A stretch of DNA of 16,055 bases from FCB group bacterium (GTDB lineage Bacteria > Fidelibacterota > Marinisomatia > Marinisomatales > JAADGP01), in contig JAADGP010000048.1 in the NCBI GenBank assembly GCA_013152315.1, positions 1-16,055 of the forward strand. Reading direction: 5' to 3'. Numbering within the stretch: the stretch's first letter is position 1; the number at the start of each line of letters is the position of its first letter. Below, one piece after another: positions 1 to 16,055 of this stretch. Made by a program: the position numbers and the translations under genes. The notes beneath the pieces were generated by a model, which did not search any database, was not told the DNA's origin, and was given only the letters and a program-made list of their open reading frames with translations.

Positions 1-1247
1 AACAGGTCCTGATTGATAACATAGATCATTACCGCCATAAGAAAGAAAGACAAACAGGTGGCTGCCGCGGCGCCAAGCGCTCCAAAATAAGGAATAAGAA
101 GCAGGTTGGCCCCGATGTTCAAAGCCGCGCCAAAGCCGCGCGTCAGAGCCGCATACTTGGATTTCTCCCGCAAAAACACACCCGGTAATTGCAGCGAATA
201 GGCCGCAAAAAAGACGTACCCCAGAGCAATCAACGGTACAATTTGTGTTGAAGACCAATACTCCGGTCCGTATACCGTTACCGGTCCGATCCTCAATTTC
301 ACCAGGGCGTCCACCCACAGAAGAAGCAAAACCCAAAAGAAACCAAGAACTGTTAATACATACGTGGTAATCCGGGAATACATCTGTCTTTTTTCTTCCC
401 CGTCTCCTTCCTTCAGGAAGAAAGGTTGCCAGCCCATATTGAATCCCATAACCAGAAGCATCATTAACATGCCCAGTTTATAGCCGGCGCTATACAGGCC
501 GACCGTCTCCATATTGGTCATGGCTTTCAATATGTACCGGTCGGCCAGTTCCATGAGCATGGCGAAAATCCCGGAGGGTAAAAACGGCAGACCAAAACGC
601 ATGAGTCGTTTCCAGGTCATCCAGGAAACAGCGCCACCACGGGTTCTTTTCACCACCAGGGGGGCCGTGATAAGCACCAGGCCGCCGGAGGTCAGGAGAT
701 TGCTTAGGAGAACCCCCTCCACCCCCATTTGGTACTTTATCACCAACAGCAAATTCAGACTTAACGAGGAAACGACATTCAGGAGACTAAACCCGATAAA
801 AGAGAGGGGTCGGCCCTCCGACCTCAGCAACAACATCGGCACCGACCACAATATATCCAGCGCCAAAATAGCAGCAATGTAAGCCAGGTAGCGGGGATAA
901 TGCCCTCCCAGGAGCAAGTCGCTGGCGACCCCCCGAACCAGAAACAGAAACAACGCGAAACCCGCGGAGGTGATGATAAAGGAAAGATAGGCCGTTGTTA
1001 ACAGTCTTTTTCTCTCCGGCGGATCGGCCGGGACATAGTACTTCATCAATGCCGCGTCGAGACCGTAATGAAGGACCACGCTCATAAAACCCATAAAAGT
1101 ATACGCCAACGACACGACGCCGTACTCGGCCGGAGTAAACGCGTTGGTGTACAGCGGTAACAACAGGAAGGTTACCATTCGGGCCAGGATATGTCCGGCA
1201 CCGTAAAGAAGCGTTTGTTGCGAAAGAGCCTTTATCCGGTCAAACAT
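1..1247 (-). CDS. Wzx/MOP-family polysaccharide (oligosaccharide-unit) flippase, C-terminal end cut by window edge
   Basis: Absent from the supplied ORF track because it runs off the window. My translation of the minus strand from the ATG (complement of 1245-1247) stays open for 415 codons down to position 3. It reads MFDRIKALSQQTLLYGAGHILARMVTFLLLPLYTNAFTPAEYGVVSLAYTFMGFMSVVLHYGLDAALMKYY... and ends ...GALGAAAATCLSFFLMAVMIYVINQDL. The N-terminal motif and many hydrophobic helices are typical of Polysacc_synt/Wzx proteins. Confidence 0.8.
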   Translation of the reverse strand, partial: MFDRIKALSQQTLLYGAGHILARMVTFLLLPLYTNAFTPAEYGVVSLAYTFMGFMSVVLHYGLDAALMKYYVPADPPERKRLLTTAYLSFIITSAGFALFLFLVRGVASDLLLGGHYPRYLAYIAAILALDILWSVPMLLLRSEGRPLSFIGFSLLNVVSSLSLNLLLVIKYQMGVEGVLLSNLLTSGGLVLITAPLVVKRTRGGAVSWMTWKRLMRFGLPFLPSGIFAMLMELADRYILKAMTNMETVGLYSAGYKLGMLMMLLVMGFNMGWQPFFLKEGDGEEKRQMYSRITTYVLTVLGFFWVLLLLWVDALVKLRIGPVTVYGPEYWSSTQIVPLIALGYVFFAAYSLQLPGVFLREKSKYAALTRGFGAALNIGANLLLIPYFGALGAAAATCLSFFLMAVMIYVINQDL

Positions 1248-1332
1248 GACCCTGGGCAGCCGGAAAGGAAATTGGGATTAGGGAATTCGATGATTTCACT
1301 GAATTTTGCACTGACCGGGCGGGAACGGGGAT

Positions 1333-4191: not shown

Positions 4192-4893
4192 TTATTGCTG
4201 CTTCACCAGGGCGGCATTAATAATAATCTCCACGCGACGGTTTAAATCACGATCGGCCGTGGAAGTATTGGCACGGACGGGGCGGTATTCTCCATAACCG
4301 GAAACAGCAAACATTGCTTCCGGCAAGCGTGTAAACTTTTGCAGCATGCGCATGACCACCTGAGCGCGGGCCGCGCTTAATTCCCAATTGTCCCGATAAT
4401 CCGATCCTTCGATAATCGGAATATTATCCGTGTACCCTTCCACCCGAATTTCCACTTTCCACTCCAAACCGTTCTTTACGAACTCGTCAATCCAGGAACG
4501 CAATTTCGGATTTTTTTCGAGGTGCAATATCCCCAGGTCGCGAATGGCATCGGCAATGCTTTTTATATGCGTTTCCAGTTCGGGGTTCGGATCCGCTTTC
4601 CCGGGATCAAACATTTTTTTATCATGAATGACTATCCGGACGCCTTTTGAATCATGCCCGATTACCAATCCTTCTATCCCGCGCTGGCTGATGGTTTCAG
4701 TAAGTTCATCCACCGCGTTTGACAACTGTTCCGATACCCAGGCGTGTACCTTTGAGATTTCACCGGCTCTTATGGAAATCATCATGATAAAGAATGTAAT
4801 CAGTAACGTAATCATATCTCCGTAACTCAACAGCCAACTGCCGTGGGTTTTCACGGAACCCACATTATTCTTGTCGATTTTAACTTTGAACAC
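4192..4893 (-). CDS. MotB/PomB-like stator subunit with OmpA-like peptidoglycan-binding domain (module 1, second MotB paralog, channel Asp retained)
   Basis: The N-terminal TM motif SWLLSYGDMITLLITFFIMM aligns to E. coli MotB [21 protein letters not shown], with Asp encoded at 4816-4818 (GAT). The OmpA-like C-terminus contains VEGYTDNIP, NWELSAARAQVV and NRRVEIII. The track start is a GTG at 4893, overlapping the upstream gene by 14 nt. Alternative GTG starts at 4863 and 4854 cannot be excluded. Confidence 0.85.
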   Translation of the reverse strand: MFKVKIDKNNVGSVKTHGSWLLSYGDMITLLITFFIMMISIRAGEISKVHAWVSEQLSNAVDELTETISQRGIEGLVIGHDSKGVRIVIHDKKMFDPGKADPNPELETHIKSIADAIRDLGILHLEKNPKLRSWIDEFVKNGLEWKVEIRVEGYTDNIPIIEGSDYRDNWELSAARAQVVMRMLQKFTRLPEAMFAVSGYGEYRPVRANTSTADRDLNRRVEIIINAALVKQQ

Positions 4894-5587
4894 GATCGGT
4901 AATTTCTATTAACTGCACATCAATATATATTTCAACCCGGCGGTTTTCATCCAGCTTTTCCCGGCTGCGGAGGGGATGAAAAGAGCCGTAGCCCGCCAGG
5001 GAAAAATATTCTTTGGGCAGGGCTGTTTTCCATTGTAAAAATTTCATCACCTGGTAAGAACGCGCCAAACTTAAATCCCAATTGGTTTTAAACCGACCGG
5101 AAAGAATCGGTAAATAATCGGTGTGTCCCTCCACCGTTAGTTCGATGGCAACTTTTTTTCCCGATCTTTTAAGGGCTTCGATAATCGGCCGGTAAGTTTG
5201 TTGAATTTTTTCGAGCTCTAACTGCTTAATAATATTGGCGGTCGTTTCCAAAAAACCGACGAAGAGAGGATTGATATTGTCATCTTCCGACGGAAACATC
5301 GGTTGTTCGCCGATTTTAGAGGGAATAAGCAACTTAATTCCTTTGGTCCCGGTATTTTCGACATACAGCCAGTCCAACCGTTGGCTTTCCTTGTCTTCCA
5401 AGATCCTTGAATACAGAATACTTTTCACACGTTCCGAGAATTTAAACGTTGTCGCCGCCTCATGCTCGGCCCGGGTCACGAAAAGAATGAAGAAAGCCAG
5501 GACGGCGGTCAGAAGCGAGGCGTAGGTCATCATCCAACCGGCCCCTCCGGACTGAGACCGATTGGCGTTCGCTATTTTACCGGCCAT
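4880..5587 (-). CDS. MotB-like OmpA-domain protein lacking the conserved channel aspartate (module 1, first MotB paralog)
   Basis: The TM motif GWMMTYASLLTAVLAFFILF has Ser (TCG, complement of 5516-5518) where MotB/PomB carry the essential Asp. The OmpA-like domain is intact: VEGHTDYLP, NWDLSLARSYQV, NRRVEIYI. I prefer the ATG at 5587 (MAGKIANANRSQSGGAGW...) over the track's TTG at 5623. That start gives an 11-nt overlap with the motA-like stop. Confidence 0.8.
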   Translation of the reverse strand: MAGKIANANRSQSGGAGWMMTYASLLTAVLAFFILFVTRAEHEAATTFKFSERVKSILYSRILEDKESQRLDWLYVENTGTKGIKLLIPSKIGEQPMFPSEDDNINPLFVGFLETTANIIKQLELEKIQQTYRPIIEALKRSGKKVAIELTVEGHTDYLPILSGRFKTNWDLSLARSYQVMKFLQWKTALPKEYFSLAGYGSFHPLRSREKLDENRRVEIYIDVQLIEITDRVQS

Positions 5588-6407
5588 TTGATTCCCGGTG
5601 TAAAGCTCGTGTATCCTTATCAAGGAATGTCAGCAGTTTTTCCTCCATAATTACCGGGTGTTCCTTGCTGTGGATACTTAAAATACCCGCCAGAATTATT
5701 TCATTAACGTGTGTCTCAAACGCTGTGCGACCTTTTAATTTTCCAGCAATGGGAATAAAAATCAGGTTCGCCAGAAGAACACCATAGAAAGTAGTAACCA
5801 AAGCGATACCCATTCCGTCCAACAATTGTCCCATCGAGTTCTCCATTTGTGATGCATATCCCGCCACGGAGCTTGACTGCCCCTGTTGTGTCATCATCAG
5901 GATCAACCCCATTACCGTCCCCAGCAATCCGAAGGCCGGGGCGTAATTTCCCATATTATAGAACATTTCCTGTCCGCTCTGATGCCTTTTAATCATGTTG
6001 TCCAGTTCGTTTTCCAGGAAACTCCGTAACTTGCCGGCATCTTTTTCGAGGATTGCATTTTCCAGCCCCATCCGTAAAAAATTATTTTCAATTTTCGGCA
6101 ATAACTTTTCAATCGTGACAAAACCTTTCTTGCGGGCGATTTGGCTTAACTCAACCAATTGGTTAATGATTTTAACCGCCGAATCATCGTTTTTTCCACC
6201 GAAAGCCTTTCCGGCAACCCGGAACATGCGCAACACGTTGGGCAGCGGATAATTAATCGCTGTGGCCGCCAGGGTTCCGCCTAATACAATAGCCACTCCC
6301 TGGATGTTGATAAAGGTTGATGGAATCATTTGGGTGTTCGGATCAAACATCCCAAACAGGATTAATCCCAACCCGATGATCAGACCAAAAACTGTTGCAA
6401 TATCCAT
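5577..6407 (-). CDS. MotA/PomA-type stator channel subunit (module 1)
   Basis: 276 aa with 4-TM MotA topology and a large cytoplasmic loop between TM2 and TM3. It carries YAPAFGLLGTVMGL (TM3 Pro motif), TTFYGVLLANLIFIPIAGKL (TM4 Pro motif) and ARKKGFVTIE, where R92 and E100 are spaced like PomA R88/E96 and MotA R90/E98. Confidence 0.88.
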   Translation of the reverse strand: MDIATVFGLIIGLGLILFGMFDPNTQMIPSTFINIQGVAIVLGGTLAATAINYPLPNVLRMFRVAGKAFGGKNDDSAVKIINQLVELSQIARKKGFVTIEKLLPKIENNFLRMGLENAILEKDAGKLRSFLENELDNMIKRHQSGQEMFYNMGNYAPAFGLLGTVMGLILMMTQQGQSSSVAGYASQMENSMGQLLDGMGIALVTTFYGVLLANLIFIPIAGKLKGRTAFETHVNEIILAGILSIHSKEHPVIMEEKLLTFLDKDTRALHRESNGR

Positions 6408-6638
6408 TGAAACCCCTTATCTAAAACCAAACAATAATGATGTAAGATGGTTGTGGTATAAAACGTATGATAAAGGAGGAAACCGGTCTACGGCCGGTTT
6501 TCACCCGATATTATCACATACGTAACAATTATACTGCCATTTTACTCTTTTTCGGAAAGAGACCGGTTCACGATAATCCAATAGTACGCCCGTACTGCCC
6601 CTGACAATATCTCGGAGCAACGCTGAAGAGGAGGTTAT

Positions 6639-7223
6639 TTAAAATCCTAAAGTATAATAGACTTCCTCACCGGTCAATTTTGATTTGCAGATTAACTCTA
6701 AATTTCTGGGAGGCGTCTTAAAATCGAAAACCAGTTCGGCAACGATCTTTTTCAAAGGCCGGATAATCGCCAGGTTCTGATATTTCCCTTCAAAAGGATT
6801 TAATTCCCCACGGACTCCTCCGGAGCCGATTAATTTCACCATGGTCGTCGCCGAAAAATCAAAATCTTTCGTCAGATCACTGTTGGCTATTTCCAATTTG
6901 ATAAAAACCCTGTTCCCCTGTTTACGCGCGCTTAATAATGTAAACTTAACTTTATCGGCCAATTGCTCGGTTCCAACCGGGAAAGCCACCCGGCCGTCTT
7001 CCAGAGCCTCGACGGGAATATAAAATTCCATTGTTGCCTTAACATATTTCTTGCTGCGGTCCAATTCCAATTTTCGTACTGTTGCCCCGGGCTCAATCTG
7101 CCCGATGGCTTCCCCATCGTATGGCCGACTGTAAATCTCCGTACCGGACTTTACTTTCGTCTCCTGCCCGACAAGAATTCCCAATAAACCGATCCAGACC
7201 AACCTGCGAATACGCGGTGTCAT
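6639..7223 (-). CDS. Secreted or membrane-anchored protein of unknown function: N-terminal SH3b-like segment plus Ig-like (DUF4352-like) beta-sandwich; third gene of module 2
   Basis: Signal or anchor sequence MTPRIRRLVWIGLLGILVGQ. KVKSGTEIYSRPYDGEAIGQIEPGATVRKLE fits the bacterial SH3 pattern. VKFTLLSARKQGNRVFIKLEIANSDLTKDFDF...IRPLKKIVAELVFDF fits the DUF4352-type pattern. The start is 8 nt after the MotB stop on the same strand. Domain calls are by eye only. Confidence 0.5.
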   Translation of the reverse strand: MTPRIRRLVWIGLLGILVGQETKVKSGTEIYSRPYDGEAIGQIEPGATVRKLELDRSKKYVKATMEFYIPVEALEDGRVAFPVGTEQLADKVKFTLLSARKQGNRVFIKLEIANSDLTKDFDFSATTMVKLIGSGGVRGELNPFEGKYQNLAIIRPLKKIVAELVFDFKTPPRNLELICKSKLTGEEVYYTLGF

Positions 7224-7231
7224 TTTACTTT

Positions 7232-7963
7232 TTATCCTGTTACCGTATTGGTTTTCACAAACGCGTCGAGATAAATTTCCACGCGCCTGTTTTTAGCGCG
7301 GGCGTCTTCGATATCCAGCGGATTCTTACCAACAGCCTTTATATCGATGACGGGGCGGAACTCACCATATCCCATGGCGGAAAACTTTGATTCCTCAATT
7401 TGCGAAAACCGGCTTAATAATTTCACCACGTTTAAAGCCCTGGCCGTGGACAGGTCCCAATTGCTTTCGTATAAGGAATTCTTTGGTAATGGCAGATCGT
7501 CCGTATGTCCTTCACAGCGTATTTCAATATTCAGAAATCCTCCCCGTTTTTCAATTGCTTCCAAAAGGTTTTTGTAGCGCGGATCTTCGAATACCCGCAT
7601 AATTTTCGACACGCGGATAATCCCCCCGATTTGTTGCAGAAGGGGATATACATCCGGTTGTACTTCCGCATCCATGGATTTGAACAGCCGGCCGCTGGCC
7701 ATGGTAATTTTAACTCCTTTGGTAACCCGTTCGACGCGTACATAGGAAGATTCCACATTTTCTTTCAATTCCTTATATGTTTCATCCAAAAGCATATTGA
7801 TTACCCGATCAATGTGCTTCTCAGCATCATTCATGATTACCAGCAATAATATGAAAAAGGTCAATAACAAGGTTACCAGGTCAGCATAGGTTACCGCCCA
7901 GGCCGTACTTTTGGCCTTGGCCTCCTCGGCCGAAAGCCCTTCGTGGAGGACCGCCGTGGTCAC
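7232..7963 (-). CDS. MotB/PomB-like stator subunit with OmpA-like domain (module 2, channel Asp retained)
   Basis: The TM motif AWAVTYADLVTLLLTFFILLL has Asp encoded at 7880-7882 (GAC). The C-terminus contains CEGHTDDLP, NWDLSTARALNV and NRRVEIYL. The GTG start overlaps the upstream motA-like TGA stop (GTGA, 7960-7963), suggesting translational coupling. Confidence 0.87.
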   Translation of the reverse strand: MTTAVLHEGLSAEEAKAKSTAWAVTYADLVTLLLTFFILLLVIMNDAEKHIDRVINMLLDETYKELKENVESSYVRVERVTKGVKITMASGRLFKSMDAEVQPDVYPLLQQIGGIIRVSKIMRVFEDPRYKNLLEAIEKRGGFLNIEIRCEGHTDDLPLPKNSLYESNWDLSTARALNVVKLLSRFSQIEESKFSAMGYGEFRPVIDIKAVGKNPLDIEDARAKNRRVEIYLDAFVKTNTVTG

Positions 7964-8772
7964 TTTATTTCCTGCCGTTTACTTTGGGGAACAAAAGTCA
8001 TGAGTTTTTCCCGAATAAGGAGCGGATGTTCCTTGGCATGGATACTGATAATTCCCTCCACAATGATATTTTTCAACATCAGTTCCTCTTCGGATTTACG
8101 CTTTAACTTTCCTCCGATAGGCAGAAACACCAGATTGGACAACAACACACCGTAAAAAGTCGTAATCAGGGCCAGTCCCATGCCACTTAACAGCTCGGCG
8201 AATTTCTTGGCTACGTCAAATTCAATGGTATCGATGGTAGCTCCATTCCCACCGGAAAAATTATTCATCATTATAATCAATCCCATGACGGTCCCCAGCA
8301 TCCCGAAAGCCGGTGCATAAGCCCCCATGTAAAAGAAAATTTCCTGTCCGTTACTGTGGCGACGCACAATGTTGCTTAATTCCAAATTAAGGTAGGTACG
8401 GAGCCGCCCGGCATCGCGTTCGTTAATAGCCAGTTCAATCCCATTCCGCAAAAATTTGTTGCTGATCTTATCCAGATCAGCTTCTAAGGACATAATCCCC
8501 GATTTACGGGCCTTTTCCGCCTTCTCCACCAATTCGTCAATCCAGTTCTGATAACTGTAGTCCTCGTCGGTAAACACGTTTTTTAATACTTTAAACAGGC
8601 CTAATACGTTCTTAAGCGGATAGTTCACCAGCGTTGCCGCAAGGGTGCCGCCCAACACAATCATAATTGAATTGAAGCTGAAAAACCAATATAAATCACC
8701 GCCGCCACGCCAGACTCCGATACCAATAATGCCCAGACCGGCAAGCAAACCAATGGCTGTCCCAAAATCCAT
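7960..8772 (-). CDS. MotA/PomA-type stator channel subunit (module 2)
   Basis: 270 aa, clearly paralogous to 5577-6407 along its full length. Shared features include LGGTLAAT, YAPAFGMLGTVMGL, TTFYGVLLSNLVFLPIGGKL and ARKSGIMSLE (R89/E97). Confidence 0.88.
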   Translation of the reverse strand: MDFGTAIGLLAGLGIIGIGVWRGGGDLYWFFSFNSIMIVLGGTLAATLVNYPLKNVLGLFKVLKNVFTDEDYSYQNWIDELVEKAEKARKSGIMSLEADLDKISNKFLRNGIELAINERDAGRLRTYLNLELSNIVRRHSNGQEIFFYMGAYAPAFGMLGTVMGLIIMMNNFSGGNGATIDTIEFDVAKKFAELLSGMGLALITTFYGVLLSNLVFLPIGGKLKRKSEEELMLKNIIVEGIISIHAKEHPLLIREKLMTFVPQSKRQEIK

Positions 8773-8944
8773 AAAAGGTCCCCAAATTTAATTTAGCGGT
8801 GTGAAGTTATTGCCTCCGACGGTGGAAGGTCAAGCGTTCTCACGTAACTTCCGTATTGAAATTTAGATAAGAGGAATATATATTCATTCAACTGTTTATT
8901 CTGTATTATGATCTTTAACGGTAACAAATATAAGGTACAATATT

Positions 8945-10333
8945 ATGAAATACCCATTGTGTATGTTCGTTTACATTGTGCTGAACGGTCATCTTTTCGG
9001 ACAAGTTATTGATTCTTTTGGCGATGGTGATTTTTCCAATAATCCGGTTTGGGTCGGTGAGACCGGTTCATGGCAAATCGTTACCCGGGCAAGTTCCGGT
9101 CCGAACGCTTCAAATTCGTACACTCTGCGTCTTAATGCACCGGACGACAATTCCTCTTCTCAATATATCGCTACCCAAAAATCCGGTTCCTGGGGCGGCG
9201 AACAATCCTGGGGTTTTTGGATAGGCCGCAGATCCTCTTCGCCCGCCACGTCCGGTAACTACAGTGTGGTTTGGCTCTGGGCCAATGAATCTAATCTGGA
9301 ATCCACTACCGTGGACGGGTACCGGATTCGATTCGGCGATAGTTCGGGAGATGATGAAATCCTTTTACAACGCGTTGACAATGGTAACGTGACTACGATT
9401 CTGACTTCCGCGGACGCAATCGCCAACGGGCTGGATGATATCGGGTTTTTAATCCGGGTCACCAGGAACAGTAATTCCATCTGGACGCTTTACACTTCGC
9501 AATTACCGACCGCCAGCGGAGAACTATACGGGGCTACCACCACACCAACTCCGGACAATACACCGGTTAACCAAGGCAGTGTGACTGATAACACGTACAC
9601 CTCTTTTGATGACGGTTATTTCGGATTTATGGCGATTCACACGACCAGTTCAATCGCACGCCAGGGAGCTGAATTCGACCAATTATATTTTGACCCCAAC
9701 AGCGATTCCTCCCTACCAGTCGAATTGAGCTTTTGGAGGATCAGAAATGAAAACACAACGGTAATTATCGATTGGACCACCGAATCGGAGATTAACAACC
9801 TGGGCTTTATAATAGACCGGCGAGAAATCGCCGAAGATCGATCCCCGCTAATTTCGCAAAGCGACTGGATCAAGATTGCCGGTTATAAAACCGATCACCG
9901 ATTGGCGGGACAGGGATCGGTAACACACCGCACCCATTATTCCTTTACCGACACGGATGTTCGCCCGCACCGGACCTACCAATATCGGTTATCCGACGTG
10001 GATTACTCCGGCAACGTGACCAACCACGGAATAAAAACCATCACCGTTAAAACAGAAGCCATTGCCTGGGGCGCCGCCTGTCCCAATCCTTTTAATCCCA
10101 ATCTCCGGATATCCTTACAGCTCGCGGAACCATCTCCGATTATGGTTAACGTATACGATCTCCGCGGAAGCCGTGTGGCTTCGTTAATCGATGAAACACT
10201 TTCGGAAGGGAGGTATACCATTAGTTGGGAAGGAAAGAACGATCGGGGGATTCCGGTCCCCGGCGGCGTTTATTTTATCCGGTTACGGAGCAAAAGTGAC
10301 ACGAAAATCCAAAAAGTCGTGTTAATCCGTTAA
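8945..10333 (+). CDS. Secreted lectin/LamG-like protein with T9SS-type C-terminal sorting domain
   Basis: N-terminal hydrophobic leader MKYPLCMFVYIVLNGHLFGQ. The jelly-roll-like N-domain begins FGDGDFSNNPVWVGETGSWQI. The middle domain starts LPVELSFW...IDWTTESEINNLGFIIDRRE...YQYRLSDVDYSGN (from 9713). The last 84 aa (10079-10330) read CPNPFNPNLRISLQL...GGVYFIRLRSKSDTKIQKVVLIR, the pattern of Por_Secre_tail / FlgD-Ig-like CTDs common in FCB-group bacteria. Confidence 0.7.
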   Translation: MKYPLCMFVYIVLNGHLFGQVIDSFGDGDFSNNPVWVGETGSWQIVTRASSGPNASNSYTLRLNAPDDNSSSQYIATQKSGSWGGEQSWGFWIGRRSSSPATSGNYSVVWLWANESNLESTTVDGYRIRFGDSSGDDEILLQRVDNGNVTTILTSADAIANGLDDIGFLIRVTRNSNSIWTLYTSQLPTASGELYGATTTPTPDNTPVNQGSVTDNTYTSFDDGYFGFMAIHTTSSIARQGAEFDQLYFDPNSDSSLPVELSFWRIRNENTTVIIDWTTESEINNLGFIIDRREIAEDRSPLISQSDWIKIAGYKTDHRLAGQGSVTHRTHYSFTDTDVRPHRTYQYRLSDVDYSGNVTNHGIKTITVKTEAIAWGAACPNPFNPNLRISLQLAEPSPIMVNVYDLRGSRVASLIDETLSEGRYTISWEGKNDRGIPVPGGVYFIRLRSKSDTKIQKVVLIR

Positions 10334-11149: not shown

Positions 11150-12007
11150 CTAATTCCGGTATTTTAACTGACGGACTTTAATACGATTCTTTACATTCAT
11201 CAAGGGGGTCATTGCGCTGGGCGGCGCTTCCGGCACCGTCAACTGCGGCATACGGAAAATCGACACCTTAAGTTTCGGATCCTGTTGCAGGGCATAAGCC
11301 GCGCTCACAAACAAATCCCGGGGAAAGAACCCTTTAATTTGTTCATATCCCAAAGCGTTTAATCCATCGCGAATAATGGTCGCGCAACTGCGGGTGAAAA
11401 AGTTGAAATCGGCATACTTCTCCGGTCGTTTCGGATCGGGAGGCGTGTTTTTAATACGGTCCAATTCGGCGTGGTAGAAGGCTTTCAGCCGGTCGGTGTC
11501 AATTCCTTCCACGTGCACCACATGGATGGTACGCATAAAATTCCGGCCGAACTTGTCGTAATAGGGACGGCCATTCTCCAATTCGACAAATTTGCCGGTT
11601 GTCGGAGAAGGGGCAAACTCACCCAACGCCGGCCGGTAAAAATATTCTTCCTTCGTCATTGCTTCATTTTCATTCGCCAAATGGGAGAAATTAAAGATTT
11701 CTCCGCAAATGTTTATCGCCGTGTGTCCAAAAGCGGAAGCCCAGTACTTTACTAACCGTTCGTTGTAATAAAGTTCCATGAAGGGTCTTTCCGGAAACGG
11801 GTCATCGGGCCACATGATCACAATTCTCTTTCCCGTTTCGTAATCGCGCTGCGGAATACGCCGCGCCAAAACCGGTTTTCCCGACCAGTGTTTAAGATAC
11901 CCCTCCCAAATTCGATCCTCTTCCAGGAAGTGTTCGCCGTTCGGACCAAGAAGATAGGATTTTTCCCCTTCCACCGTCAGGATTCCCTTATATACGACTC
12001 CTTCCAT
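11150..12007 (-). CDS. Hypothetical cytoplasmic protein; possible permuted-papain (PPPDE/DeSI-like) thiol hydrolase
   Basis: 285-aa ORF with an ATG start and no signal peptide. ELYYNERLVKYWASAFGHTAINICGEIFNFSH, and about 110 aa later FNFFTRSCATIIRDGLNALG, resemble the His-then-Cys arrangement of PPPDE-type peptidases (HTG..V.G.EY.FG ... Y.L...NCNHF). Similarity is judged by eye only. It sits 1 nt from recO and 1 nt from the rhomboid gene. Confidence 0.35.
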   Translation of the reverse strand: MEGVVYKGILTVEGEKSYLLGPNGEHFLEEDRIWEGYLKHWSGKPVLARRIPQRDYETGKRIVIMWPDDPFPERPFMELYYNERLVKYWASAFGHTAINICGEIFNFSHLANENEAMTKEEYFYRPALGEFAPSPTTGKFVELENGRPYYDKFGRNFMRTIHVVHVEGIDTDRLKAFYHAELDRIKNTPPDPKRPEKYADFNFFTRSCATIIRDGLNALGYEQIKGFFPRDLFVSAAYALQQDPKLKVSIFRMPQLTVPEAPPSAMTPLMNVKNRIKVRQLKYRN

Positions 12008-14342: not shown

Positions 14343-14753
14343 AAAGCTTCCTTTATTTTAACTACAGAAATTTTGGTATTAAGATCCGATAATGCCTGCG
14401 GACGATATGAATACTAAGCATTAAAAAGGGTAATTTTAACCGTAAATAACCGACGGGAAAATTAGCGGGGATCGGGAGGGCTTTCCAACAGAAAGGTTTG
14501 GCTTTATAAAATCCCCACCAATCTACGCCAAGATTGCTCATGATATAACAGCAATGAATTATCGGACTGACACCCTGTTTCTTCTATTTGCCCTTCTCCA
14601 CTAAGCGGATAAGCCCGTATTCTTTTGAATCATAATGCAATCGATATCCAGTTTTTTTGGCTCTTGAATCCTGTCTTCCACCCCCTCCGGGAACGCCCAG
14701 CTTTATCTTTCATCGCTACTCCAAATGCGCCTATTTTCCTTCGAACTATTGTT

Positions 14754-16055
14754 ATGAAAGGACAAACAATTCTCGCTTTGTTTATCGGATCGGTCATGTC
14801 TGTGCTTATGGCGGAAAAGGGAACAACACTTTTTACCGATTGCCACGTGTTCGGGTACCCGGAGGCGAATGCAATTCTAAGCGAAAACGGCACCATCACG
14901 GTAATCGGCTCCGCCACCGATTTCTCCGCTGAAGATACCGTGTCCCTGAAAGGCGGCTATCTTTATCCCGGTTTTACCGACGCGCATCTTCACTTGACAG
15001 GATTGGGCTGGTCCCTGGAGGTTCTGGACCTGGTCGGGACCAAATCAGCGGAAGAAATTGTGGCTCTGGTTTCCGAAGCGACAACCCGAACCGGAAAACG
15101 GCGCTGGATCCAAGGGCGGGGTTGGGACCAAAACGATTGGGCAATTCCGGAATACCCAACCAAAAACCTGCTGGACCGCGTAGCGCCGGACGTTCCCGTC
15201 TGTTTACGCCGCATTGACGGCCACGCCGTCTGGGTAAATTCACGTGCCCTGGAAATTGCCGGTATCACGGCCGATTTCGCCGATCCGGACGGCGGTAAAA
15301 TCCTGCGCGACGAACACGGCGCCCCCACGGGAATTCTGATCGACAATGCCATCGCCCTGGTTGTCTCCCACATCCCTCCCGACACAAAAGAAGACAAGCG
15401 GCGTTACGTTTTGCGGGCAACCGCCCTGCTCAATTCCCTGGGAATCACCGCGGTCCACGATGCCGGTACCGACGCGGAAACCATTGCCGTTTTAAAAGAA
15501 CTTACCGCCGAAAACGCTCTTCCCCTCCGGGTTTATGCCATGTTAAACAACCAACCCGAGGACTATCAGGTATTCCTGGAATCCGGGCCTGAAACAGGCA
15601 ATCCCTTTTTAAAAGTGCGCGCAGTCAAATTATACCTGGACGGAGCTTTGGGCTCCCGGGGAGCCGCTTTATTGGCGCCCTATACCGACGATCCCCTTAA
15701 TTACGGTCTCATACTGACCGATTCCAGTGTGATTGCCCGGCAGGTTCAACGATTTAATACGGCTGGTTTTCAGGTCTGTGTTCATTGTATCGGAGACCGG
15801 GCCAATCGGATTGCGCTTGACATATTCGAGAACCTACGTCGCGTTATTCCCGGGGACCACCGCAACCGGATCGAACATGCGCAGATCGTTCACCGCCGGG
15901 ACATTCCCCGCTTCGCGATCCTGAACGTCATCCCCTCCATGCAAGCCACGCACTGTACCAGTGACATGTACTGGGCTGACGAACGACTGGGACCGGCGCG
16001 CCTGGAAGAGGCCTACCCCTGGCAATCGCTGGTGCGGTCCGGATCGATCATTGCC
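14754..16055 (+). CDS. Secreted metal-dependent amidohydrolase, YtcJ-like (Amidohydro_3), 3' end beyond window
   Basis: Absent from the ORF track because it is an edge ORF. My translation from the ATG at 14754 is open for 434 codons to the window end. It reads MKGQTILALFIGSVMSVLMAEKG (signal peptide) ...GGYLYPGFTDAHLHLTGLG (HxH metal site)...RRIDGHAVWVNSRALEIAGI...VKLYLDGALGSRGAALL...HCIGDRANR...RIEHAQ. Confidence 0.85.
   Translation, partial: MKGQTILALFIGSVMSVLMAEKGTTLFTDCHVFGYPEANAILSENGTITVIGSATDFSAEDTVSLKGGYLYPGFTDAHLHLTGLGWSLEVLDLVGTKSAEEIVALVSEATTRTGKRRWIQGRGWDQNDWAIPEYPTKNLLDRVAPDVPVCLRRIDGHAVWVNSRALEIAGITADFADPDGGKILRDEHGAPTGILIDNAIALVVSHIPPDTKEDKRRYVLRATALLNSLGITAVHDAGTDAETIAVLKELTAENALPLRVYAMLNNQPEDYQVFLESGPETGNPFLKVRAVKLYLDGALGSRGAALLAPYTDDPLNYGLILTDSSVIARQVQRFNTAGFQVCVHCIGDRANRIALDIFENLRRVIPGDHRNRIEHAQIVHRRDIPRFAILNVIPSMQATHCTSDMYWADERLGPARLEEAYPWQSLVRSGSIIA

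What the first reader, a model, noticed from the sequence alone, without database searches (positions are those of the whole stretch)
4192..8772. Two tandem paralogous MotA/MotB-type stator modules, each with a different non-canonical third gene
Six consecutive minus-strand genes form two three-gene units, MotA-MotB-X. Module 2 is MotA(7960-8772)/MotB(7232-7963)/secreted SH3b-Ig-like protein(6639-7223). It has a GTGA start/stop overlap and then an 8-nt gap. Module 1 is MotA(5577-6407)/MotB-like without the channel Asp(4880-5587)/MotB-like with Asp(4192-4893), with 11-nt and 14-nt overlaps. The two MotA copies are full-length paralogs, so this is an ancient tandem duplication followed by divergence of the accessory gene. 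No flagellar, chemotaxis, Tol-Pal or TonB genes are visible nearby; the neighbours are eno/ftsB on one side and a T9SS-type cargo gene on the other. Known 5:2 ion-driven motors (MotAB, PomAB, ExbBD, TolQR, GldLM, AglRQS, ZorAB) are usually two-gene cores. A three-gene core with a second B-type subunit, or with a periplasmic SH3b/Ig protein, is not a textbook architecture. It may mark a specialised or undescribed use of the motor.
Basis: partly seen in the sequence, partly recalled or inferred. Interest (0 to 1): 0.7.

Follow-up and report, generated by a model that had tools for sequence, protein, structure and literature searches.

The report
Flagellar-type stator operons without a flagellum
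Two three-gene operons for flagellar-type, probably sodium-driven motor units are conserved throughout Marinimicrobia, an abundant ocean phylum that appears to have no flagella, so this motor is probably used for something not yet described.

Summary
Six minus-strand genes form MotA2-MotB2-X (8772-6639) and MotA1-MotB*-MotB1 (6407-4192), with the stated overlaps, and MotB* has Ser where the channel Asp should be. The window is a whole 16-kb contig of an 'FCB group' MAG related to Marinimicrobia (Fidelibacterota).

Both triplets are rigidly conserved. MotB2 precedes X in 63 of 64 metagenomic loci and MotA2 in 51 of 51. MotA-MotB*-MotB is intact in all ten module-1 contexts outside the window's own clade, including one more distant relative tied to a secretin.

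Both MotAs belong to the flagellar class in sequence, and MotA2 also in its predicted fold. They keep the PomA sodium-site threonines and the rotor-facing Arg/Lys/Glu. They are sister paralogs sharing an enlarged periplasmic loop.

Relatives seem to lack flagella. In 12 Marinisomatota MAGs, fliM, fliN and che genes scored 0 of 12, while a fliG model hit 8 of 12. The only isolate, Fidelibacter multiformis, is non-motile yet encodes an intact FliG and a degenerate FliF-like protein next to a MotB gene.

Best reading: PG-anchored stators, probably sodium-coupled, used without a flagellum, perhaps on a reduced FliF/FliG ring. Module 1 probably has a MotB*/MotB1 heterodimeric axle. The output is unknown. 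This is a new variant of a known kind.

The parts
7960..8772 (-). MotA2: A subunit of module 2 (270 aa), flagellar-class (FIT/TGI4-like) MotA/PomA-type
   Evidence: It hits Pfam MotA_ExbB and aligns over its full length to solved MotA/PomA chains at E 2e-44 to 7e-37. The AF2 model has pLDDT 81, and the top 23 Foldseek hits are all flagellar MotA/PomA. The PomA R88/K89/E96, T158/T185/T186 and P151/P199 equivalents are invariant or nearly so in 43 family members.
7232..7963 (-). MotB2: B subunit of module 2 (243 aa), with TM helix carrying Asp (TYADLVT), plug and OmpA-like PG-binding domain
   Evidence: It hits MotB_plug and OmpA. Its start overlaps the MotA2 stop as GTGA. Asp is present in all 47 family members where the motif was found.
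6639..7223 (-). X: exported or membrane-anchored 194-aa accessory protein (N-terminal hydrophobic helix, small beta domain, Ig-like beta-sandwich), specific to this phylum
   Evidence: It has no Pfam or NCBIfam hit, although homologs show a weak DUF4352 hit. The family has only 31 representatives among 1.84 billion. It follows MotB2 in 63 of 64 loci.
6408..6638 (-). 231-nt spacer between the modules, with a hairpin plus T-run at 6500-6480, a possible terminator and promoter region for module 1
   Evidence: Found by the pattern scan. The number of such sites is not above the shuffled expectation, so this is weak. In most relatives the two modules are unlinked, which fits separate transcription units.
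5577..6407 (-). MotA1: A subunit of module 1 (276 aa), a paralog of MotA2 (48% identity)
   Evidence: Supported. It is 59% identical to the MotA of Fidelibacter multiformis.
4880..5587 (-). MotB*: first B-type subunit of module 1 (235 aa), with plug and OmpA-like domain but Ser in place of the channel Asp (TYASLLT)
   Evidence: Supported. The family is well conserved, with 25 invariant columns in 32 sequences. The Asp column is D in 45, S in 37 and A in 2 clusters.
4192..4893 (-). MotB1: second B-type subunit of module 1 (233 aa from the GTG at 4893), with the Asp kept (SYGDMIT)
   Evidence: Supported. Asp is kept in all 8 loci examined. The exact start is uncertain, because the close relative L003 has no canonical start codon for the full-length form.
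8773..8944 (.). Divergent intergenic region between MotA2 and the T9SS-type cargo gene, the presumed promoter region of module 2
   Evidence: This is inferred from gene layout. One sigma-70-like match on the + strand at 8856-8884 is not above chance.

Best explanation
The six genes are two separate operons that are conserved across Marinimicrobia/Fidelibacterota. Each encodes an ion-driven 5:2-type stator of the flagellar (MotA/PomA) class, anchored to peptidoglycan by OmpA-like domains.

Ion flow, probably sodium, past the Asp of the B-subunit helix would make the MotA pentamer turn around the B dimer.

- Module 2 is MotA2 with MotB2 plus X. X is a small periplasmic accessory protein, made in step with MotB2, that probably docks on or positions the periplasmic part of the stator.
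- Module 1 is MotA1 with two different B subunits. MotB1 always keeps the Asp, while MotB* can lose it. The two therefore most likely form a heterodimeric axle in which one Asp suffices.

The lineage appears to lack a flagellum but keeps FliG and a degenerate FliF. The stators therefore most likely work on a reduced FliF/FliG ring, or on another cytoplasmic partner that reads the same charged face. In other words, the flagellar motor core is used without a flagellum. The output is unknown.

Shown: gene content, conservation, fold class and key residues.

Inferred: sodium coupling, the heterodimer, the role of X, coupling to FliG, and absence of flagella in this particular genome.
For: Identity as flagellar-class stators:
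- Both MotAs align over their full length to solved MotA/PomA (E 1e-34 to 1e-45), with ExbB only at E 9e-4.
- The MotA2 model matches 23 flagellar stator chains (TM 0.67-0.87) before any ExbB or TolQ chain (TM 0.3-0.5).
- The model has four cytoplasmic helices and an unbroken TM3, which are FIT/TGI4 criteria in PMC12505986.

Purifying selection (with residue roles from PMC10374538): R88 and E96 are invariant, K89 nearly so, and T158/T185/T186 and P151/P199 are invariant in 43 MotA2 and 6 MotA1 sequences.

Conserved triplets.

MotB* versus MotB1: the Asp column of MotB* is D in 45, S in 37 and A in 2 clusters, while the rest of the protein stays conserved. MotB1 keeps Asp in 8 of 8 loci. Overlapping reading frames suggest coupled synthesis.

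No flagellum in relatives:
- fliM, fliNY and cheA/B/R are absent in 12 of 12 Marinisomatota MAGs, including one that is 93% complete. A fliG model hits 8 of 12.
- Fidelibacter multiformis is non-motile.
- Two comparative genome papers on the phylum never mention flagella or motility.

FliG link: the F. multiformis genome carries MotB, then a FliF-like gene, then FliG about 8 kb upstream of its module 1. All three FliG domains score above the Pfam cut-offs, and the torque-helix charges are kept.

Non-flagellar use of the same long-loop MotA clade: a MotA-B*-B triplet lies in an apparent operon with a GspM/PilO-like gene and a secretin.
Against: - The window is 16 kb and the rest of this genome was not seen, so a flagellar regulon in this organism cannot be excluded.
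- The fliG hits in the MAG table may partly be MgtE cross-hits. A Nanoarchaeota MAG also scores, and MgtE occurs in the phylum.
- FliG and FliF were seen in one genome only, next to a third kind of MotB that is 33-39% identical to the window MotBs. They were not seen next to either module, and none of the Marinimicrobia loci held contains them.
- PomA D114 and R232, which matter for FliG coupling in Vibrio, are not conserved here.
- A more distant triplet locus has a chemoreceptor gene next door, and Desulfobacterales triplets sit in taxa that are usually flagellated (my own knowledge). The architecture as such may therefore also serve flagella.
- A close relative (L005) has a truncated MotA1 and a split MotB*, so module 1 may be dispensable.
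- No multimer modelling or experiment supports the heterodimer or the role of X.
Confidence: 0.5

Rival explanations
1. These are ordinary flagellar stators. The organism is flagellated and carries two stator sets, as in MotAB/MotCD of Pseudomonas or PomAB/MotAB of Shewanella. X and MotB* would be stator-associated accessory proteins, analogous in role to MotX/MotY, FliL or MotK/MotE.
For: - Both MotAs are flagellar-class in sequence, and MotA2 also in predicted fold.
- The rotor-facing R/K/E residues are conserved.
- A real FliG exists in the phylum.
- Aquifex has a flagellar motA/motB1/motB2 operon.
- The L012 triplet lies next to a chemoreceptor gene.
- The rest of this genome is unseen.
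Against: - fliM, fliNY and che genes are absent in 12 of 12 related MAGs, while the same models detect them in other taxa in the same table.
- The only isolate is non-motile.
- No flagellar gene lies within 10 kb of either module in any Marinimicrobia locus.
- Both modules are kept in small pelagic genomes of 0.6-2.1 Mb.
- All MotA scores are far below the NCBIfam equivalog cut-offs.
Confidence: 0.2
2. The stators energise an envelope machine with no FliG-type rotor. Ion-driven rotation would be passed through the periplasmic B domains and X to an outer-membrane or periplasmic device, such as type IX secretion or gliding, a secretin, or Tol-Pal-like envelope maintenance. This would resemble the way ExbBD, TolQR, GldLM and AglRQS work.
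For: - A long-loop MotA-B*-B triplet sits in one apparent operon with a GspM/PilO-like gene and a secretin.
- T9SS-type cargo genes lie next to the modules here, and C25 peptidases lie next to them in L010 and L005.
- X is periplasmic and strictly linked to MotB2.
- The enlarged periplasmic TM3-TM4 loop is a clade-specific feature on the periplasmic side.
Against: - The cargo neighbours are not conserved across loci.
- The cytoplasmic face of MotA (R88/K89/E96) is invariant, which points to a cytoplasmic partner, although these residues may also be structural.
- No PorL/M, TolA or TonB-like partner was seen.
- The secretin-linked locus has no DNA on hand and lies in another organism.
Confidence: 0.22
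3. These are decaying relics of a lost flagellum with no present function.
For: - Module 1 is damaged in one relative (L005: MotA1 of 144 aa and a split MotB*).
- Asp is lost in many MotB* sequences.
- The FliF-like protein in Fidelibacter is highly degenerate.
Against: - Dozens of invariant columns are maintained across lineages that are 40-60% diverged, including all ion-pathway residues.
- The triplets are intact in 51 of 51 and 63 of 64 loci.
- They are retained in small pelagic genomes, and the proteins are seen on more than 170 contigs each.
Confidence: 0.03
4. This is an anti-phage Zorya-like system (ZorAB).
For: The PADLOC ZorB models hit all three MotBs (E 1e-10 to 6e-21).
Against: - ZorA hits are marginal and partial (E of 2e-5 or weaker).
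- The MotAs are 270-276 aa and have no long ZorA tail.
- No ZorC, ZorD or ZorE-like genes are present.
- The loci are core and syntenic rather than island-like.
Confidence: 0.02

Closest known systems
PomAB / MotPS sodium-driven flagellar stators (FIT class, TGI4 type; structures 8brd/8bri, 6ysf)
   Same: - The A subunit has four TM helices and a four-helix cytoplasmic domain.
- The B subunit has a plug and an OmpA-like domain.
- The A subunits are 27-33% identical and TM-scores are 0.67-0.87.
- The three Na+-site threonines, both prolines, and R88/K89/E96 are conserved.
   Different: - All scores are below the NCBIfam equivalog cut-offs.
- The TM3-TM4 periplasmic loop is 13-16 residues longer.
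- D114 and R232 are not conserved.
- A third gene is always present.
- The host phylum seems to lack fliM/fliN, chemotaxis genes and observed motility.
Aquifex aeolicus motA/motB1/motB2 operon (PMC4525482)
   Same: One MotA is followed by two MotB genes in one operon, and the stator is sodium-type.
   Different: - In Aquifex the two MotB TM regions are 97% identical, both keep Asp, and each was tested separately with MotA in a flagellated organism.
- Here the two B subunits are about 30% identical, and one can lose the Asp.
AglRQS gliding motor of Myxococcus (one A, two B subunits)
   Same: It is a three-gene core with two different B-type subunits, used outside the flagellum. Whether the B subunits form heterodimers is open there too (PMC9389320).
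   Different: AglR is TolQ-like (GIT class), AglQ and AglS are TolR-like and both keep Asp, and there is no OmpA-type MotB domain.
Vibrio T-ring proteins MotX/MotY, FliL, MotK/MotE (periplasmic stator accessories)
   Same: X is a small periplasmic protein genetically tied to a stator B subunit.
   Different: X has no sequence similarity to any of them (no Pfam or NCBIfam hit). Its fold is an MPT63/DUF4352-type Ig-like sandwich, and the family is confined to this phylum (31 representatives).
Retained flagellar genes in non-flagellated bacteria (for example Lysobacter enzymogenes, PMC9927559)
   Same: Flagellar-family genes are kept in a lineage without flagellar motility.
   Different: By that paper's abstract, Lysobacter keeps many flagellar genes. 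Here only stators, FliG and a degenerate FliF-like gene were seen, and the stators are duplicated and elaborated.

Membership tests
Flagellar ion transporter (FIT) stator, A subunit (PMC12505986) | Four TM helices plus an expanded cytoplasmic domain with at least four helices (torque-generating interface) | tested here: met
   Both MotAs align over their full length to solved MotA/PomA. The MotA2 model has helices at 74-91, 93-102 and 106-117, plus the start of 121-173. The top 23 fold hits are flagellar stators.
Flagellar ion transporter (FIT) stator, A subunit | Continuous (unbroken) TM3 | tested here: met
   The AF2 model has a single helix at 121-173. This rests on the model only.
Flagellar ion transporter (FIT) stator, B subunit | Plug/linker next to the TM helix and an OmpA-like PG-binding domain | tested here: met
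   MotB_plug and OmpA hit all three B proteins. The OmpA motif columns are invariant in the MotB* family.
Flagellar ion transporter (FIT) stator, B subunit | Conserved ion-binding Asp in the TM helix | tested here: not met
   This feature is met for MotB2 and MotB1 but not for MotB*, which has Ser here. Across the MotB* family the column is D in 45, S in 37 and A in 2 clusters.
Flagellar stator (functional membership: drives FliG of a flagellum) | A flagellum with FliG/FliM/FliN rotor in the same organism | not testable with these tools
   The rest of this genome is not available. In relatives, fliM, fliNY and che genes are absent in 12 of 12 MAGs and a fliG model hits 8 of 12. The only isolate is non-motile but has FliG and a FliF-like gene.
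Flagellar stator, rotor interface | Charged residues equivalent to PomA R88, K89, E96, D114 and R232 | tested here: inconclusive
   R88 and E96 are invariant and K89 nearly so. D114 becomes Asn (MotA2) or Leu/Ile (MotA1), with an invariant Glu at the next position. R232 is hydrophobic.
NCBIfam equivalogs MotA / PomA / MotP | Score above the curated cut-off | tested here: not met
   The best four models score 156-200 bits, against cut-offs of 237-394.
Sodium-driven stators (PomAB/MotPS) | Thr at PomA positions 158, 185 and 186 (PMC10374538) | tested here: met
   These residues are invariant in 43 MotA2 and 6 MotA1 sequences. The coupling ion itself was not tested.
ExbBD / TolQR (GIT class) | Condensed cytoplasmic domain, ExbD/TolR-type B subunit, TonB or TolA partner | tested here: not met
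   ExbB and TolQ hits have E of only 6e-4 to 1e-2. Fold TM-scores are 0.3-0.5. The B subunits are MotB/OmpA type, and no TonB or TolA is nearby.
Zorya ZorAB | ZorA with a long C-terminal tail, plus ZorC/D or ZorE partners | tested here: not met
   ZorA hits are marginal and partial. The MotAs are 270-276 aa, and no partner genes are present.
DUF4352 / MPT63-like Ig fold (for X) | Pfam PF11611 match or a clear fold match | tested here: inconclusive
   The window protein has no Pfam hit, and its homologs carry only a weak PF11611 hit. Foldseek finds MPT63 and YjhA first, but at E 1e-3 and TM 0.42-0.59.
Known stator accessories (MotX, MotY, FliL) | Sequence match to the family models | tested here: not met
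   X has no hit in Pfam or NCBIfam at E of 0.01 or better.

The most novel reading that the evidence does not exclude
Marinimicrobia, one of the most abundant bacterial phyla of the dark ocean, universally keep a flagellum-less rotary motor. It would consist of a reduced FliF/FliG ring driven by two kinds of elaborated sodium stators. One kind has a heterodimeric axle with a single ion-binding Asp. The other has a phylum-specific periplasmic adaptor. The motor would power an unknown envelope process. This would be the first case of the flagellar torque-generating core working outside a flagellum.
Probability: 0.3. Interest if true: 0.9.

Novelty: new variant of a known kind. Interest (0 to 1): 0.72.

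Why it matters
Flagellar-class stators (MotAB/PomAB) have so far been treated as specific to the flagellum, and non-flagellar 5:2 motors belong to other branches (ExbBD, TolQR, AglRQS, GldLM, ZorAB).

A phylum that lacks the switch complex and chemotaxis genes yet conserves two elaborated flagellar-class stator operons plus FliG would show one of two things. Either the torque-generating core has an independent use, or it can survive the loss of the flagellum by taking on a new job. This bears on how the flagellar motor arose and how it decays.

The variable Asp in MotB* offers a natural test of whether a 5:2 motor can run with one ion-binding site.

Fidelibacter multiformis is culturable and carries module 1 plus FliG, so the question can be tested by experiment.

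Tried and rejected
- **Genome scan.** It returned mostly unrelated MotBs. It gave only side information: triplets in L013 and Desulfobacterales, and FliG genes of flagellated taxa.
- **Exact look-up of X.** This found nothing. The homolog search then identified the source.
- **RNA and signals.** Rfam and tRNA scans of the window were empty. Promoter and terminator pattern counts were not above the shuffled expectation.
- **Defence system.** PADLOC gave only generic MotB-like ZorB hits, so a defence reading was rejected.
- **FliG/FliF in held loci.** A tblastn search with the Fidelibacter proteins found FliG only in flagellated non-Marinimicrobia loci and found no FliF-like match.
- **Rejected annotations for X.** FliL, MotX and MotY were considered and rejected, as X has no model hits.
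- **Rejected origin.** 'Simple tandem duplication still in place' was considered and rejected as the general state, because adjacency is seen only in the window's own clade.

Full report
**Observation**

The window carries six consecutive minus-strand ORFs at exactly the reported coordinates.

| Gene | Coordinates |
|---|---|
| MotA2 | 7960-8772 |
| MotB2 | 7232-7963 |
| X | 6639-7223 |
| MotA1 | 5577-6407 |
| MotB* | 4880-5587 |
| MotB1 | 4192-4893 |

Reading the sequence confirms every junction. MotA2 and MotB2 overlap as GTGA, and an 8-nt gap precedes X. MotA1 and MotB* overlap by 11 nt, and MotB* and MotB1 by 14 nt.

Pfam assigns MotA_ExbB to both A proteins and MotB_plug plus OmpA to all three B proteins. 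X has no hit. NCBIfam matches both MotAs over the full length of the MotP, PomA and MotA models, at 156-200 bits for the best four. All of these scores are below the equivalog cut-offs.

MotB* reads WMMTYASLLT, with Ser where MotB2 (TYADLVT) and MotB1 (SYGDMIT) have the channel Asp. MotA1 and MotA2 are 48% identical over their full length. The three B proteins are about 30% identical to each other.

**Source**

The X protein is identical to a hypothetical protein of an NCBI MAG named 'FCB group bacterium' (locus tag GXO92_02890), on a 16,056-bp contig. The window is therefore the whole contig. All close homologs of X, MotB* and MotA1 that carry names are from Marinimicrobia, Neomarinimicrobiota or Fidelibacterota.

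**Are the third genes real partners?**

Yes, for both modules.

*Module 2.* A metagenome scan with an alignment of X returned 73 loci. MotB2 lies directly upstream of X in 63 of the 64 loci with room for it. MotA2 lies upstream of that in 51 of 51. A profile search of 1.84 billion representative proteins finds only 31 relatives of X, so X is a small family tied to this triplet. Its AlphaFold model (pLDDT 77) has an N-terminal hydrophobic helix, a small beta domain, and a confident beta-sandwich. The nearest solved folds are MPT63 and YjhA, at weak E-values.

*Module 1.* The MotB* family has about 90 clusters at 45-60% identity. Every context examined shows MotA, then MotB*, then a second MotB, with small overlaps:
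- pelagic Marinimicrobia (L010/L011)
- three other Marinimicrobia lineages (L166-L168)
- Fidelibacter multiformis (L169)
- two more distant organisms (L012, L013)
- a locus listed only by its gene table

**How the two modules relate**

In a rough NJ tree the MotA1 and MotA2 families are sisters, with the L013 and L012 triplet MotAs outside them. Both families share a TM3-TM4 periplasmic loop that is 13-16 residues longer than in PomA or in Bacillota, Caldithrix and Desulfobacterales MotAs. L012, Fidelibacter and the P0237 protein share it too. A duplication in this lineage is therefore well supported.

The tandem arrangement is nevertheless unusual:
- The common layout is RecO, a 285-aa unknown gene, rhomboid, MotA2-MotB2-X, then eno and a FemAB-like gene on the other strand.
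- eno follows X in 45 of 49 loci, and MotA1 follows X in only one, which is the 90%-identical relative.
- In pelagic genomes module 1 lies elsewhere.
- In the L166 lineage module 1 occupies the slot just after the rhomboid gene.

An ancestral tandem between rhomboid and eno would explain all three layouts, but this is inference.

**Class of motor**

Both MotAs align from end to end with solved flagellar MotA/PomA chains (E 1e-34 to 1e-45). ExbB appears only at E 9e-4.

The AlphaFold model of MotA2 (pLDDT 81) has four cytoplasmic helices between TM2 and an unbroken TM3. Its top 23 Foldseek matches are all flagellar stator A subunits, and ExbB and TolQ follow far behind. These are the features that a 2025 classification uses to define flagellar ion transporters of the TGI4 type (PMC12505986).

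I aligned 43 distinct MotA2 and 6 MotA1 sequences to PomA. The reference sequence was checked as identical to PDB 8bri.

| PomA position(s) | State in MotA1/MotA2 families |
|---|---|
| T158, T185, T186 | invariant |
| P151, P199 | invariant |
| R88, E96 | invariant |
| K89 | nearly invariant |
| D114 | Asn (MotA2) or Leu/Ile (MotA1), with an invariant Glu at the next position |
| R232 | hydrophobic |

The three threonines form the sodium site and are replaced in proton stators. R88, K89 and E96 face FliG (PMC10374538). Sodium coupling is therefore a reasonable inference for a marine lineage, but it was not tested.

**The B subunits**

The Asp column of MotB* is D in 45 clusters, S in 37 and A in 2. 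The window's clade, Fidelibacter and several others have Ser, while the pelagic clade has Asp. The rest of MotB* is well conserved, with 25 invariant columns in 32 sequences, including the OmpA-type motif. It is therefore not a pseudogene.

MotB1 keeps Asp in 8 of 8 loci. MotB2 keeps it in all 47 sequences where the motif was found.

The simplest reading has MotB* and MotB1 sitting together inside the MotA1 pentamer, with only MotB1 needing to carry the ion-binding site. The alternative is separate homodimeric complexes, as tested for Aquifex MotB1 and MotB2 (PMC4525482). That would leave Asp-less MotB* complexes unable to conduct ions.

The same order, an Asp-less B followed by an Asp-bearing B, occurs behind short-loop MotAs in three Desulfobacterales loci. 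The architecture has therefore arisen or spread more than once.

**Is there a flagellum?**

The window holds no flagellar gene, and I could not see the rest of the genome. Four lines of evidence from relatives bear on the question.

1. The only cultured member of the phylum, Fidelibacter multiformis, is described as non-motile (PMC11652737).
2. Two genome-comparison papers on the phylum never mention flagella, motility or chemotaxis.
3. A published per-MAG table for oxygen-deficient zones lists results of fliG, fliM, fliN and che models. In the 12 Marinisomatota rows I could read, fliM, fliNY and cheA/B/R are absent in all 12, and none is called motile. A fliG hit appears in 8 of 12, including a MAG that is 93% complete. 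The same models find all three genes in other taxa of that table.
4. The complete F. multiformis genome has module 1. About 8 kb upstream on the same strand it has a MotB gene, a 517-aa protein and a 311-aa FliG.
   - The 517-aa protein has a short YscJ_FliF_C match. Its C-terminal tail ends in IIRDWMEEDE, which from memory resembles the FliG-binding end of FliF.
   - The FliG N, M and C domains all score above the Pfam cut-offs.
   - The FliG torque helix keeps the K...ED...R charge pattern of flagellar FliGs.
   - The genes after FliG are not flagellar.

Together this suggests that the phylum lacks a conventional flagellum but keeps FliG, a degenerate FliF and flagellar-class stators.

There are four caveats:
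- Some fliG hits may be MgtE cross-matches. A Nanoarchaeota MAG also scores, and MgtE occurs in the phylum.
- The FliG cluster was seen in one genome.
- The MotB beside that cluster belongs to neither window family.
- No FliG lies near the modules in any other locus held.

**Other context**

Gene neighbours of the modules are otherwise housekeeping genes that differ between lineages. T9SS-type cargo genes sit next to the modules here and in L005/L010, but not consistently.

One more distant long-loop MotA (P0237) heads an apparent operon of MotA, an OmpA-type B, MotB, a GspM/PilO-like protein, an unknown gene and a secretin. This shows that the triplet class can be tied to a non-flagellar envelope machine.

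PADLOC gives only generic ZorB-like hits and no Zorya partners.

**Verdict**

There are two conserved three-gene stator units, related by duplication, in a non-flagellar setting. It needs four corrections:
- Adjacency is lineage-specific.
- The Asp loss is variable.
- The MotAs belong to the flagellar class rather than outside it.
- One MotA with two MotBs has precedents.

I found no description of this system in the papers searched. I rate it a new variant of a known kind. The strongest open possibility is that the flagellar torque-generating core works here without a flagellum.

Noticed in passing
L169:1-2831 (Fidelibacter multiformis AP035449.1:134147-136977): A MotB gene, a 517-aa FliF-like protein and an intact FliG lie in a row, about 8 kb upstream of this non-motile isolate's MotA1-MotB*-MotB1 triplet. 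The FliF-like protein has a short YscJ_FliF_C match, a coiled or low-complexity middle, a C-terminal TM helix, and a tail ending IIRDWMEEDE. All three FliG domains score above the Pfam cut-offs. No other flagellar genes follow.
   Followed up: partly
Supplementary Dataset 3 of PMC10359470 (12 Marinisomatota MAG rows read): The rows show a consistent pattern of fliG=1 with fliM=0 and fliNY=0 and no che genes (8 of 12 have fliG). This may reflect a real orphan FliG across the phylum or MgtE cross-hits, since a Nanoarchaeota MAG shows the same pattern.
   Followed up: partly
Contig of P0237 (JGI 3300072015, 173 kb; gene table only, no DNA held): A long-loop MotA is followed by an OmpA-type B without a plug hit, a MotB, a T2SSM_b (GspM/PilO-like) protein, a 220-aa unknown and a secretin. 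All are on one strand with abutting ends, so a stator triplet is apparently operon-linked to a secretin.
   Followed up: no
L032:5824-8412, L045:8451-10672, L060:254-2562 (Desulfobacterales MAGs): MotA-MotB-MotB triplets in which the first B lacks the channel Asp (Gly, Gly, Ser) and the second keeps it. Their MotAs have the short PomA-like loop, so this looks like a parallel case of the same architecture.
   Followed up: partly
L005:10839-11966 (66-88% identical relative): Module 1 looks damaged here. MotA1 is only 144 aa and MotB* is split into two ORFs, while MotB1 and the whole of module 2 are intact. This is either decay of module 1 in that lineage or an assembly error.
   Followed up: no
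window 4860-4900 versus L003:10040-10110: In the 90%-identical relative, seen in two independent assemblies, all three in-frame GTG codons at the 5' end of MotB1 are GTA. The frame is kept across a 3-nt indel. Full-length MotB1 there therefore has no canonical start codon, and an ATC just upstream or coupled re-initiation may be used. The true start in the window is uncertain for the same reason.
   Followed up: partly
window 11150-12007 (minus strand): A 285-aa protein with no Pfam hit is conserved at 53-59% identity between RecO and the rhomboid protease across the phylum. It always lies just upstream of the stator slot.
   Followed up: no
window 8945-10333 (plus strand): The T9SS-type cargo gene (FlgD_ig, with a sub-threshold Por_Secre_tail hit) is inserted between the rhomboid gene and MotA2 only in the window's clade and L113. 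Most relatives have rhomboid directly before MotA2, or other genes in between.
   Followed up: partly
window 3-1277 (minus strand) and 14613-16055 (plus strand): Two long reading frames run off the contig ends. The left one corresponds to the Polysacc_synt flippase gene seen in L003. The right one (at least 481 codons open) was not identified. The high-GC stretch at 14.5-16 kb is this gene, not an RNA (Rfam found nothing).
   Followed up: partly
window 8236-8266 and 5845-5889 (TM3-TM4 loops of MotA2 and MotA1): Both MotAs carry a 13-16-residue enlargement of the periplasmic loop. It is disordered in the model (MotA2 residues 175-183). It is shared with L012, Fidelibacter and the secretin-linked P0237, but not with PomA or with Bacillota, Caldithrix or Desulfobacterales MotAs. 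It may be a docking site for periplasmic partners.
   Followed up: partly
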